This document shows positions 24,001-27,000 of a DNA stretch of 64,000 bases, piece after piece. Source of the stretch: Escherichia coli (GTDB lineage Bacteria; Pseudomonadota; Gammaproteobacteria; Enterobacterales; Enterobacteriaceae); the NCBI RefSeq assembly GCF_041248615.1, contig NZ_CP158426.1; one strand, 5' to 3'. The position numbers are program-made. Position 1 is the first letter of the stretch; every line of letters begins with the position of its first letter.

Positions 24001-27000
24001 AGAGCTGATGACCACCGGTGTGGATGCTAAAACCTGCAAACTGGTAGTACTGGACCAGAACATCCAGTCGATGACCAAATTCAAGCAAATTATCGGTCGT
24101 GGTACACGCATCGACGAACGTTACGGCAAACTCTGGTTTACCATCCTCGACTTTAAAAAAGCCACCGAACTGTTTGCCGATGAGCGTTTCGATGGCATTC
24201 CCGAAAAAGTCATGGATACCACGCCAGAGGATATCGCCGACCCAGAATCTGATTTTGAAGAGAAACTCGAAGAAATCAGCGAACATGACGACGAACAGGT
24301 AACAGGCGTTGATGAACCGCCTGCGCCACCATACCAGGTTACCGATACCGATGATGTCGGCCCACTTCCGGAAGAAGACGAGAAGAAAATCCGCAAGTTT
24401 CACGTCAACGGTGTAGCGGTGGGCGTTATTGCGCAGCGTGTTCAGTATTACGATGCCGACGGTAAACTGGTTACCGAATCTTTTAAAGATTACACCCGCA
24501 AAACACTGCTCAAAGAATATGCCTCGCTGGATGACTTTACCCGCAAGTGGCAGGACGCCGATCGCAAAGAAGCGATCATTCACGAGCTGGAACAACAGGG
24601 GATCATCTGGGAAGTACTGGCAGAAGAAGTCGGTAAAGATCTCGACCCGTTCGACATGCTTTGCCACGTAGTGTATGGTCAGCCGCCGTTAACCCGCAAA
24701 GAGCGCGCCGAGAACGTGCGCAAGCGGAACTACTTCACAAAATACTCTGAAGCAGCGCAAGCCGTGCTCGATAATCTGCTGGATAAATACGCCGATGCGG
24801 GCGTACAGGAGATCGAAAGTATTCAGGTGCTGAAACTTAAGCCATTCGACAGCATGGGCACCTTACCGGAGATTATTAAAACCGGATTTGGCGACCGTAA
24901 CGGGTATAATCAGGCGCTCAGCGAGCTGGAAAACGAAATCTACCAATTACCGCCCCGCTCTGCTTAACAACTCTCTTTTGCGCCTTCTGCAACCATCATG
25001 TTGCAGAAGGCCTTGTTTTTCATGGAATACAACATGTCTATCAGCTCAGTAATCAAATCATTACAAGATATTATGCGCAAAGATGCCGGTGTGGACGGCG
25101 ATGCGCAGCGTCTCGGTCAGCTCTCCTGGCTGCTGTTTTTGAAAATCTTCGATGCCCAGGAAGAGGCGCTGGAACTGGAGCAGGATAACTATCAATATCC
25201 GATCCCACAGCGTTATTTATGGCGCAGTTGGGCCGCAAACGCTCAGGGCATTACCGGTGATTCCCTGCTGGAATTCGTTAATGATGATCTGTTCCCGGCG
25301 TTGAAAAACCTCACTGCGCCTATCGATAAAAACCCACGCGGCTACGTGGTAAAGCAGGCGTTCAGCGATGCCTATAACTACATGAAAAACGGTACGCTAC
25401 TGCGTCAGGTGATCAACAAGCTGAACGAAATTGACTTTACCAGCGCCAGCGAACGGCATCTGTTTGGTGATATTTACGAGCAGATCCTTAAAGATCTGCA
25501 ATCTGCGGGCAATGCGGGCGAATTCTATACTCCACGCGCCGTCACTCGCTTTATGGTGGATCGCGTTGATCCGAAACTCGGCGAATCCATTATGGACCCG
25601 GCCTGCGGTACGGGCGGTTTTCTTGCCTGCGCATTTGATCATGTAAAGAACAAATACGTGAAGAGCGTCGCCGATCATCAGACGCTGCAACAACAGATCC
25701 ACGGTGTTGAGAAAAAACAGCTTCCGCACCTGCTGGCGACCACCAATATGCTGCTACACGGCATTGAAGTGCCAGTGCAAATTCGTCACGACAACACTCT
25801 GAACAAACCGCTTTCCTCCTGGGATGAGCAACTGGATGTCATTGTTACCAACCCGCCGTTTGGTGGCACGGAAGAAGACGGTATTGAGAAGAACTTTCCA
25901 GCAGAGATGCAAACCCGCGAAACGGCGGATTTGTTCCTGCAACTGATTGTGGAAGTACTGGCGAAAAATGGTCGCGCGGCGGTGGTATTGCCGGATGGCA
26001 CACTATTTGGCGAAGGCGTTAAAACCAAAATCAAAAAGCTACTTACCGAAGAGTGCAACCTGCATACCATCGTGCGCTTACCGAATGGTGTGTTTAACCC
26101 CTATACCGGCATTAAAACCAACCTGTTGTTCTTTACCAAAGGTCAGCCAACCAAAGAGATTTGGTTCTATGAGCATCCGTATCCGGCGGGCGTGAAAAAT
26201 TACAGTAAAACTAAGCCGATGAAGTTTGAAGAGTTTCAGGCGGAGATTGACTGGTGGGGTAACGAGGCCGATGGTTTTGCCAGCCGCGTCGAGAATGAGC
26301 AGGCGTGGAAAGTCAGCATTGATGACGTGATTGCGCGCAACTTCAATCTGGATATTAAAAACCCACATCAGGCGGAAACCGTTAGCCATGATCCGGACGA
26401 ACTGTTAGCGCAGTATGCAAAACAGCAGGCGGAGATCCAGACGCTGCGTAATCAACTGCGCGATATTCTTGGCGCTGCGCTGTCTGGCAAGGAGGTTAAC
26501 TAATGAGTGTGGAAAAGCTGATCGTTGATCATATGGAAACCTGGACCTCGGCGTTGCAAACCCGTTCCACCGCCGGGCGCGGCAGTTCCGGAAAAATTGA
26601 TTTATATGGCATTAAGAAATTACGTGAGCTGATTCTGGAACTGGCTGTGCGCGGTAAACTGGTGCCGCAGGACCCGAACGATGAACCGGCGTCGGAGCTG
26701 CTGAAGCGTATTGCGGCAGAAAAAGCAGAGCTGGTGAAGCAAGGTAAAATTAAAAAGCAAAAACCACTGCCGGAAATTAGTGAGGAAGAGAAGCCGTTTG
26801 AATTGCCGGAGGGATGGGAGTGGGTGCGTATTAGTGAAATTGGACATGACTGGGGACAAAAAACTCCAGATAAAGATTTTACTTACATTGATGTTGGTTC
26901 AATAAATAAAGAATATGGAATTATTGAAGAGCCATCTATTCTTTCAGCGAAAGATGCCCCATCGCGAGCGAGAAAAATTGTTCAGCAAGGGACTATCATA

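What the first reader, a model, noticed from the sequence alone, without database searches (positions are those of the whole stretch)
26501..26505. Translational coupling junctions (TAATG, ATGA) in several operons
hsdM/hsdS share a 1-nt stop/start overlap (TAATG at 26501..26505). hpaG/hpaE (7657..7660), yjiH/yjiG (51080..51083) and yjiL/small ORF (39049..39052) overlap by 4 nt (ATGA). This supports these reading-frame assignments and fixed-stoichiometry expression, notably for HsdM:HsdS.
Basis: seen in the sequence. Interest (0 to 1): 0.15.

Follow-up and report, generated by a model that had tools for sequence, protein, structure and literature searches.

The report
Ordinary stop/start gene overlaps in operons

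Summary
TAATG at 26501-26505 joins hsdM and hsdS with a 1-nt overlap. ATGA at 7657-7660 (hpaG/hpaE), 39049-39052 (yjiL/ytiA) and 51080-51083 (yjiH/yjiG) are 4-nt overlaps. The window is identical to E. coli NRZ14408, and RefSeq uses the same starts. A fifth ATGA junction, idlP/iraD (54084-54087, minus strand), was missed; it is the only one with published experimental coupling.

The overlaps are conserved in relatives while the surrounding bases change:
- 8/8 informative type IB hsd loci keep a -1 overlap.
- yjiL/DUF3343 is -4 in five enterobacterial loci.
- yjiH/yjiG relatives are -4, -1 or -8.
- hpaG/hpaE is -4 or -1 in Enterobacterales but has a 27-nt gap in Pseudomonas.

Five of 38 same-strand junctions (13%) overlap this way, which matches the roughly 15% published for E. 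coli. An hsdM/hsdS overlap with proposed coupling was already described for EcoKI.

The reading-frame assignments are sound. The "fixed stoichiometry" reading is not supported. The methyltransferase is M2S1, hsdS has its own very strong ribosome-binding site, HpaG and HpaE are separate pathway enzymes, and published ribosome profiling shows overlapping pairs vary in relative translation about as much as non-overlapping ones. The finding is ordinary and already known.

The parts
26501..26505 (+). TAATG: hsdM stop TAA (26501-26503) overlapping hsdS start ATG (26503-26505) by 1 nt
   Evidence: The same -1 geometry (TGATG or TAATG) is found in 8/8 informative type IB relatives.
26489..26495 (+). 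Shine-Dalgarno AAGGAGG for hsdS, inside the last codons of hsdM, 7 nt before the ATG
   Evidence: Read. Duplex energy -12.1 kcal/mol, rank 2 of 51 starts. Mostly conserved in relatives.
25034..26503 (+). hsdM, type I R-M methyltransferase subunit, 489 aa (EcoAI/type IB-like system)
   Evidence: RefSeq annotation. Pfam HsdM_N plus N6_Mtase.
26503..28248 (+). hsdS, specificity subunit, 581 aa
   Evidence: RefSeq annotation. Pfam Methylase_S x2. N-terminus conserved from Met1.
7657..7660 (+). ATGA: hpaE start ATG overlapping hpaG stop TGA (4-nt overlap). SD GAGGA at 7643-7647.
   Evidence: HpaG NF011750 covers 1-429/429 and HpaE TIGR02299 aligns from residue 4. Relatives: -4 in Klebsiella and Erwinia, -1 in Providencia, +27 in Pseudomonas.
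39049..39052 (+). ATGA: start of ytiA (DUF3343, 88 aa, 39049-39315) overlapping yjiL stop (yjiL 38285-39052). Weak SD (-5.1 kcal/mol).
   Evidence: Pfam PF11823 aligns from residue 4. -4 overlap in Citrobacter, a Klebsiella-like contig, Atlantibacter and K. pneumoniae (ATGA) and in K. oxytoca (GTGA).
51080..51083 (+). ATGA: yjiG start overlapping yjiH stop (yjiH 50400-51083, yjiG 51080-51541). SD AAGGAG at 51067-51072.
   Evidence: YjiG NF007811 aligns from residue 1. Relatives: -4 in Citrobacter and Salinivibrio, -1 in Vibrio, -8 in Serratia and L013.
54084..54087 (-). ATGA on the minus strand: iraD start overlapping the stop of the leader peptide gene idlP (idlP 54084-54167, iraD 53695-54087).
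   Evidence: Coupling of iraD to idlP (ORF27) and its repression by CsrA are reported in the literature (PMC7652899).

Best explanation
These are ordinary short stop/start overlaps (-4 ATGA and -1 TAATG) between adjacent same-strand genes, the commonest tight-junction geometry in bacterial genomes.

In each pair the ribosome-binding site of the downstream gene lies inside the last codons of the upstream gene. A ribosome finishing the upstream gene therefore sits directly on the downstream start. It can promote downstream initiation in two ways: by keeping the site unfolded for a fresh 30S subunit, or by re-initiating without leaving the mRNA. Where the downstream gene has a strong Shine-Dalgarno sequence (hsdS, hpaE, yjiG), independent initiation probably adds to this. 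Where it is weak (ytiA), dependence on upstream translation is likely greater.

The effect is co-expression of neighbouring genes from one transcript, not a fixed protein ratio.

Shown here: the overlaps exist, the starts are correct, and the geometry is conserved in relatives. Inferred: that downstream translation depends on upstream translation for the four named pairs. Shown in the literature: idlP/iraD coupling. Proposed in the literature: EcoKI hsdM/hsdS coupling.
For: - Motifs and ORF boundaries.
- Each overlapping ATG is the first possible start in its open frame, and profiles or homolog N-termini anchor the proteins to it.
- SD pairing is -12.1 (hsdS), -8.4 (hpaE), -7.7 (yjiG), -6.9 (iraD) and -5.1 (ytiA) kcal/mol, against a mean of -2.3 at random positions.
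- The overlap geometry is conserved while the stop codon, flanking bases and neighbouring genes differ. Type IB hsdM/hsdS: 8/8 at -1 across 65-91% HsdM identity. yjiL/DUF3343: 5/5 at -4. yjiH/yjiG: 5/5 overlapping. hpaG/hpaE: 3/4 overlapping. Type IA hsdM/hsdS: -4 in an EcoKI-like locus and in Acinetobacter, -1 in V. vulnificus.
- Literature: -4 and -1 are by far the commonest distances in 1,695 species (PMC10666635). 4 of 5 native E. coli ATGA pairs were coupled in reporter assays (PMC6728339). An hsdM/hsdS overlap with proposed coupling is described for EcoKI (PMC3510504). idlP/iraD coupling is reported (PMC7652899).
Against: - No expression data exist for these four pairs, so coupling is an inference from geometry.
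- Local RNA folds around all five junctions are no more stable than shuffled controls (z from +0.83 to -1.32), so there is no sign of a structure that would make downstream initiation dependent on upstream ribosomes.
- One tested E. coli ATGA pair (bioBF) was not coupled.
- Overlapping pairs vary in relative translation efficiency about as much as non-overlapping pairs (PMC5318159).
- Orthologs with gaps (Pseudomonas +27, Nostoc +192) show the overlap is dispensable.
Confidence: 0.85

Rival explanations
1. The overlaps are real but functionally neutral. They are by-products of compact operons and of the compatibility of A/T-rich stop codons with ATG. Each downstream gene is translated independently from its own Shine-Dalgarno site, with no meaningful dependence on upstream translation.
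For: - hsdS, hpaE and yjiG have SD sites at or above the window median.
- There is no significant local structure to gate initiation.
- bioBF initiates de novo.
- The spread of translation-efficiency ratios is similar for overlapping and non-overlapping pairs.
- RRF depletion does not change coupling.
- Pseudomonas and Nostoc orthologs have gaps.
Against: - The -4/-1/-8 geometry persists across genera while adjacent bases diverge, including a switch between TGA and TAA stops and an ATG-to-GTG start change. That suggests purifying selection on the abutment.
- 4 of 5 native E. coli ATGA pairs tested were coupled.
- ytiA has only weak SD pairing (-5.1 kcal/mol, rank 33 of 51).
- idlP/iraD, with the same geometry in this window, is coupled.
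Confidence: 0.12
2. One or more downstream genes actually start at a later in-frame codon, so the apparent overlap is an annotation artefact. Candidates are hsdS GTG at codon 3 or ATG at codon 11, yjiG ATG at codon 10 or 12, and ytiA ATG at codon 26.
For: Alternative in-frame start codons exist within the first 26 codons of hsdS, yjiG and ytiA. Gene callers favour the longest ORF.
Against: - HsdS residues 1-20 are conserved in 8 relatives, while Val3 and Met11 are not.
- Family profiles align from residue 1 (YjiG), residue 4 (HpaE) and residue 4 (YtiA).
- YtiA residues 1-25 are conserved across four genera.
- SD motifs sit 7-9 nt upstream of the overlapping ATGs.
Confidence: 0.02
3. The hsdM/hsdS junction is a programmed frameshift site that produces some HsdM-HsdS fusion protein, like the engineered functional EcoKI fusion.
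For: - An engineered M-S fusion is functional (PMC3510504).
- A very strong internal SD lies just upstream of the stop. From general knowledge, not checked here: this resembles the prfB frameshift stimulator.
Against: - The hsdS frame has a TAA stop only 2 codons upstream of its ATG, so a -1 shift would have to occur within the last codon of hsdM.
- Reading directly, there is no slippery heptamer in GGAGGTTAACTAATG, and the +1 frame closes within about 10 codons.
Confidence: 0.01

Closest known systems
EcoKI (type IA) hsdM/hsdS junction, Roberts et al. 2012 NAR (PMC3510504); Loenen et al. 1987 as cited there
   Same: hsdM and hsdS are adjacent on one strand, in different frames, with overlapping stop and start, and translational coupling is proposed. 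The methyltransferase is M2S1.
   Different: The system here is EcoAI-like (type IB): HsdR 810 aa, HsdM 489 aa, HsdS 581 aa. Its junction is TAATG (-1). The EcoKI-type junction I read in L025 is GAATGAGT, which is ATGA (-4 counting the stop), although the paper describes it as '1 nt'. Roberts et al. note that the frame switch sits earlier in the hsdM-hsdS sequence in type IB.
Native E. coli ATGA pairs tested for termination-reinitiation (hyfHI, astDB, ydbH/ynbE, menDH, bioBF), Huber et al. 2019 (PMC6728339) and the 2023 follow-up (PMC10666635)
   Same: Same 4-nt ATGA geometry with an SD inside the upstream gene.
   Different: Those pairs were tested experimentally and 4 of 5 were coupled. hpaG/hpaE, yjiL/ytiA and yjiH/yjiG have not been tested.
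idlP-iraD leader-peptide coupling (Park et al. 2017, as summarised in PMC7652899)
   Same: ATGA overlap, and it is present in this very window (54084-54087, minus strand).
   Different: It is a regulatory device: CsrA represses the leader ORF and so represses iraD. It is not a junction between two full-length protein-coding genes.
trpB/trpA stop-start overlap (classical translational coupling, cited)
   Same: A -1 type overlap (TGATG) between genes for subunits of one complex. This detail is from general knowledge.
   Different: Coupling there was measured and was modest (1.7-fold in the reporter assay of PMC7538156). Nothing has been measured for the pairs here.

Membership tests
Short stop/start overlap gene pairs (-4 ATGA / -1 TRATG) | Two adjacent genes on the same strand whose stop and start codons share 4 or 1 nucleotides | tested here: met
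   four pairs on the + strand plus idlP/iraD on the - strand
Short stop/start overlap gene pairs (-4 ATGA / -1 TRATG) | Both partners are real protein-coding genes with correctly assigned ends | tested here: met
   Family profiles and homolog N-termini. ytiA is PF11823 and is present in 5385 of 5426 E. coli genomes.
Translationally coupled gene pairs | Both genes lie on one mRNA | tested here: inconclusive
   Overlapping genes leave no intergenic room for a terminator. The consensus scan of the hsd region lists weak promoter- and terminator-like sites inside hsdM, including a weak terminator-like site at 26445-26462 just upstream of the junction. Such matches are not evidence of function, and no transcript data are available.
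Translationally coupled gene pairs | Translation of the downstream gene depends on translation of the upstream gene | not testable with these tools
   This needs premature-stop reporter assays or ribosome profiling. It has been shown only for idlP/iraD in the literature and proposed for EcoKI hsdMS.
Translationally coupled gene pairs (RNA-unfolding type) | The downstream ribosome-binding site is sequestered in a stable structure that upstream ribosomes melt | tested here: not met
   100-nt folds around all five junctions are no more stable than shuffles (z from +0.83 to -1.32). Long-range pairings were not examined.
Type IB (EcoAI-family) restriction-modification system | HsdR of the EcoAI/FtnUII family | tested here: met
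   NF046051 scores 1189.7 bits against a cutoff of 550. Pfam EcoEI_R_C is also present.
Type IB (EcoAI-family) restriction-modification system | A shorter HsdM and a longer HsdS, with extended conserved regions, than in other type I families (PMC3510504) | tested here: met
   HsdM is 489 aa against 529 aa in the EcoKI-like locus. HsdS is 581 aa against 455 aa. The first 40 or so HsdS residues are conserved in 8 relatives.
Type IB (EcoAI-family) restriction-modification system | Complementation, hybridisation or antibody cross-reaction within the family | not testable with these tools
   These are experimental criteria.

The most novel reading that the evidence does not exclude
The most novel reading not excluded concerns yjiL/ytiA rather than hsd. 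The DUF3343 (Se/S-carrier-like) protein YtiA may be an obligate third component of the YjiM/YjiL system (YjiM annotated as a double-cubane-cluster reductase, YjiL as its activator ATPase). Its weakly SD-driven translation would then depend on ribosomes finishing yjiL.

The trio stays together with a -4 overlap in five enterobacterial loci whose downstream neighbours all differ. A weaker alternative is that the conserved -1 overlap plus strong internal SD in type IB systems is a device that sets the HsdS:HsdM ratio.
Probability: 0.3. Interest if true: 0.3.

Novelty: already known. Interest (0 to 1): 0.08.

Why it matters
It matters little beyond annotation quality. The overlaps confirm that the operon structures and start codons in this region are sensibly annotated, and they identify the 'small ORF' as the conserved gene ytiA.

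The useful correction is conceptual: a stop/start overlap marks tight co-expression and possible coupling, but it is not evidence of fixed subunit stoichiometry. The conserved yjiM-yjiL-ytiA module is a modest lead for anyone studying that uncharacterised reductase system.

Tried and rejected
- Scans of viral contigs for relatives of HpaG, YjiL and YjiH found nothing. I used plasmid tblastn and exact-protein contig look-ups instead.
- Li et al. 2014 absolute synthesis rates, which could give HsdM:HsdS in K-12, are not held in the library.
- Local RNA folding gave no significant structure at any junction, so I could not distinguish an unfolding mechanism from re-initiation.
- A programmed-frameshift M-S fusion was considered and rejected: there is an in-frame TAA 2 codons upstream in the hsdS frame, and no slippery site is visible.
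- Alternative downstream start codons were considered and rejected on N-terminal conservation.
- A literature search for ytiA/yjiL returned nothing relevant to E. coli ytiA.

Full report
**1. What is in the sequence**

The window is 100% identical to Escherichia coli NRZ14408 chromosome NZ_LT599825.1, positions 4643546-4707545.

- TAATG at 26501-26505: hsdM stop TAA and hsdS ATG share one A.
- ATGA at 7657-7660: hpaG/hpaE.
- ATGA at 39049-39052: yjiL and an 88-aa ORF.
- ATGA at 51080-51083: yjiH/yjiG.

Mechanical ORF listing and the RefSeq annotation give the same boundaries. In each case the overlapping ATG is the first possible start after an in-frame stop 2-21 codons upstream. Only downstream alternatives are therefore conceivable. 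In all four pairs the downstream gene is in the +2 frame relative to the upstream gene.

**2. Are the genes and starts right?**

- HpaG matches the NCBIfam equivalog NF011750 over 1-429 of 429 positions.
- HpaE matches TIGR02299 from residue 4.
- YjiG matches NF007811 from residue 1.
- YjiL is an acyl-CoA dehydratase activase (TIGR00241).
- The 'small ORF' carries Pfam PF11823 (DUF3343, Se/S-carrier-like) from residue 4. It is annotated as ytiA in other E. coli genomes, and the yjiL end/ytiA start is present in 5385 of 5426 complete genomes.
- The hsd system is EcoAI-like (type IB): HsdR matches NF046051 at 1190 bits, HsdM is 489 aa and HsdS is 581 aa.
- No profile anchors the HsdS N-terminus. 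In eight relatives, however, the protein is conserved from Met1 (M[ST]VEKLI..W[ST]SALQ), while the alternative in-frame GTG (codon 3) and ATG (codon 11) are not conserved.

Shine-Dalgarno pairing upstream of the overlapping ATGs is -12.1 (hsdS, AAGGAGG at 26489-26495), -8.4 (hpaE), -7.7 (yjiG) and -5.1 (ytiA) kcal/mol. The mean at random positions is -2.3 and the median for annotated starts in the window is -6.0.

**3. More than chance?**

The motifs alone mean nothing: ATGA occurs 613 times in the window. Their placement does.

- All four TGA stops preceded by A mark a genuine downstream start.
- Two of the four stop+TG cases (after hpaI and yjiX) are chance.
- Of 38 same-strand adjacent pairs, four have a gap of -4 and one has -1. 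Of the 16 junctions with a gap of 20 nt or less, five are at -4 or -1, giving P = 4.5e-4 against a crude uniform null.
- 13% overlapping pairs is what the literature reports genome-wide for E. coli, about 15% (PMC5318159).

**4. Conservation in relatives**

- *Type IB hsdM/hsdS.* All 8 informative IMG/VR loci (HsdM 65-91% identical) keep a 1-nt overlap, as TGATG or TAATG, while the last HsdM codons differ.
- *Type IA hsdM/hsdS.* An EcoKI-like E. coli locus reads GAATGAGT (ATGA, -4). Acinetobacter is -4, Vibrio vulnificus is -1, and Nostoc has a 192-nt gap.
- *yjiL/DUF3343.* The overlap is -4 in Citrobacter amalonaticus, a Klebsiella-like contig, Atlantibacter hermannii and K. pneumoniae (ATGA), and in K. 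oxytoca (GTGA). YtiA is 56-71% identical in the four fetched by protein, flanking bases diverge, and the downstream neighbours are all different.
- *hpaG/hpaE.* Klebsiella -4, Erwinia -4, Providencia -1, Pseudomonas +27.
- *yjiH/yjiG.* Citrobacter -4, Salinivibrio -4, Vibrio -1, Serratia -8, and a Klebsiella-like paralogous pair -8.

So close abutment is conserved within Enterobacterales and Vibrionales, but it is not obligatory over longer distances.

**5. Mechanism**

Local RNA folds of 100 nt around the five junctions are no more stable than dinucleotide shuffles (z from +0.83 to -1.32). Nothing points to a structure that gates the downstream start.

The literature is split on how coupling works:

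- Huber et al. 2019 found coupling in 4 of 5 native E. coli ATGA pairs and attributed it to termination-reinitiation.
- The 2023 follow-up shows steep dependence on distance, and finds that -4 and -1 are the commonest spacings in 1,695 species.
- Saito et al. 2020 found that RRF depletion leaves coupling unchanged, and favour de novo initiation aided by melting of structure.

For this window the honest statement is that the geometry permits coupling. It is demonstrated only for idlP/iraD and proposed for EcoKI hsdM/hsdS. It is untested for the four named pairs.

**6. The stoichiometry claim**

- The methyltransferase is M2S1 and the nuclease R2M2S1, so the needed ratio is 2:1.
- The hsdS ribosome-binding site ranks second of 51 in the window, while that of hsdM ranks 43rd. 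Sequence alone does not predict S <= M.
- Burkhardt et al. 2017 found that overlapping ORF pairs vary in relative translation essentially as much as non-overlapping pairs (p = 0.06).
- Tight junctions are enriched for heteromeric complexes (30.4% against 6.8%), but about 70% are not complexes.
- HsdM/HsdS fits the complex class. YjiH/YjiG, two Gate-domain membrane proteins, plausibly does. HpaG/HpaE are annotated as separate pathway enzymes, and I know of no complex between them.

The overlap therefore supports co-expression, not a fixed ratio.

**7. Comparison with what is known, and novelty**

The hsdM/hsdS overlap and its proposed coupling are in the abstract of Roberts et al. 2012 for EcoKI. 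The same paper notes that type IB systems have the frame switch at a different place, which is what is seen here. ATGA and TRATG overlaps are textbook material. Nothing in the finding is new.

The only mildly new lead is that ytiA (DUF3343) travels with yjiM-yjiL at a -4 overlap across genera, which suggests it belongs to that uncharacterised reductase module.

**8. Verdict**

The coupling interpretation is plausible but untested. The fixed-stoichiometry interpretation is not supported. The phenomenon is already known and of low interest.

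Noticed in passing
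window 54084-54087 (- strand); idlP 54084-54167, iraD 53695-54087: A fifth ATGA stop/start overlap, between the leader-peptide gene idlP and iraD. It is the only junction in the window with published experimental translational coupling (CsrA represses idlP and so represses iraD).
   Followed up: partly
window 9974-9988, 11235-11250, 13528-13542, 38273-38287, 63265-63279 (- strand): A second class of tight junction with +9/+10 nt spacing, in which the upstream TAA stop is itself the start of the downstream Shine-Dalgarno (TAAGGAG, TAAGGAA or TAAGGGGG). Pairs: hpaD/hpaF, hpaH/hpaI, hpaX/hpaA, yjiM/yjiL, fimD/fimF. PMC10666635 mentions a small E. coli-specific peak near +10 nt.
   Followed up: partly
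window 9121-9127: hpaE/hpaD are separated by a single base (TGAtATG). This is another junction close enough to be coupled by the published -8..+10 criterion.
   Followed up: no
window 28858-30951 (- strand): An intact 697-aa ORF carries GmrSD_N, GmrSD_C and DUF5655 domains in one frame. RefSeq annotates it as a 387-aa GmrSD CDS plus a separate 'incomplete' DUF262 pseudogene. This looks like an annotation artefact rather than a broken gene.
   Followed up: partly
window 20605-22257 (-), 22535-28248 (+), 28470-28811 (+), 28858-30951 (-): The type IB hsdRMS operon is flanked on both sides by GmrSD-family (type IV, modification-dependent) restriction genes, and is followed by symE. From general knowledge, not checked here: this is a variant of the E. 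coli 'immigration control region', which in K-12 holds mrr, EcoKI and mcrBC.
   Followed up: no
window 24982-25011 (+): A strong terminator-like hairpin (12-bp stem, 7 G-C pairs, T-rich tail) lies in the 66-nt gap between hsdR and hsdM, only 22 nt before the hsdM start. It suggests that hsdR and hsdMS expression are at least partly separated.
   Followed up: no
window 62221-62730 (- strand): The RefSeq fimG CDS (62221-62664) begins at an ATA codon. A full-length 169-aa ORF starts at ATG 62730, only 6 nt after the fimF stop. The annotated start is probably truncated.
   Followed up: no
window 39628-41646 (+): A 672-aa pentapeptide-repeat protein gene with GC of 0.31-0.41, against 0.53-0.56 in neighbouring yjiL. 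It sits between ytiA and yjiK, whereas in Citrobacter amalonaticus the SdiA-regulated yjiK-like gene follows ytiA directly. It is likely a horizontally acquired insertion.
   Followed up: partly
window about 39259-39315: Most E. coli genomes match the yjiL/ytiA region only up to window position 39259, so the last ~20 codons of ytiA differ between strains. Homologs are 78-91 aa long.
   Followed up: no
locus L025 3387-3390 (EcoKI-like E. coli): The EcoKI-type hsdM/hsdS junction reads GAATGAGT, a 4-nt ATGA overlap counting the stop codon. Roberts et al. 2012 describe it as a 1-nt overlap, apparently counting only the last sense codon. So type IA (-4) and type IB (-1) junction geometries differ.
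   Followed up: partly
window 53695-53702; 54283-54521 (- strand): hypT and iraD converge and overlap by 8 nt. Upstream of idlP, two tiny annotated hypothetical ORFs overlap each other by 22 nt; their reality is doubtful.
   Followed up: no
loci L013 2919-5186 and L023 1492-3453: In Klebsiella, the yjiM-yjiL-DUF3343 module lies convergently next to a yjiH/yjiG-like Gate-domain pair plus an M20 peptidase. The two modules are about 11 kb apart in this E. coli window but are immediate neighbours there.
   Followed up: no
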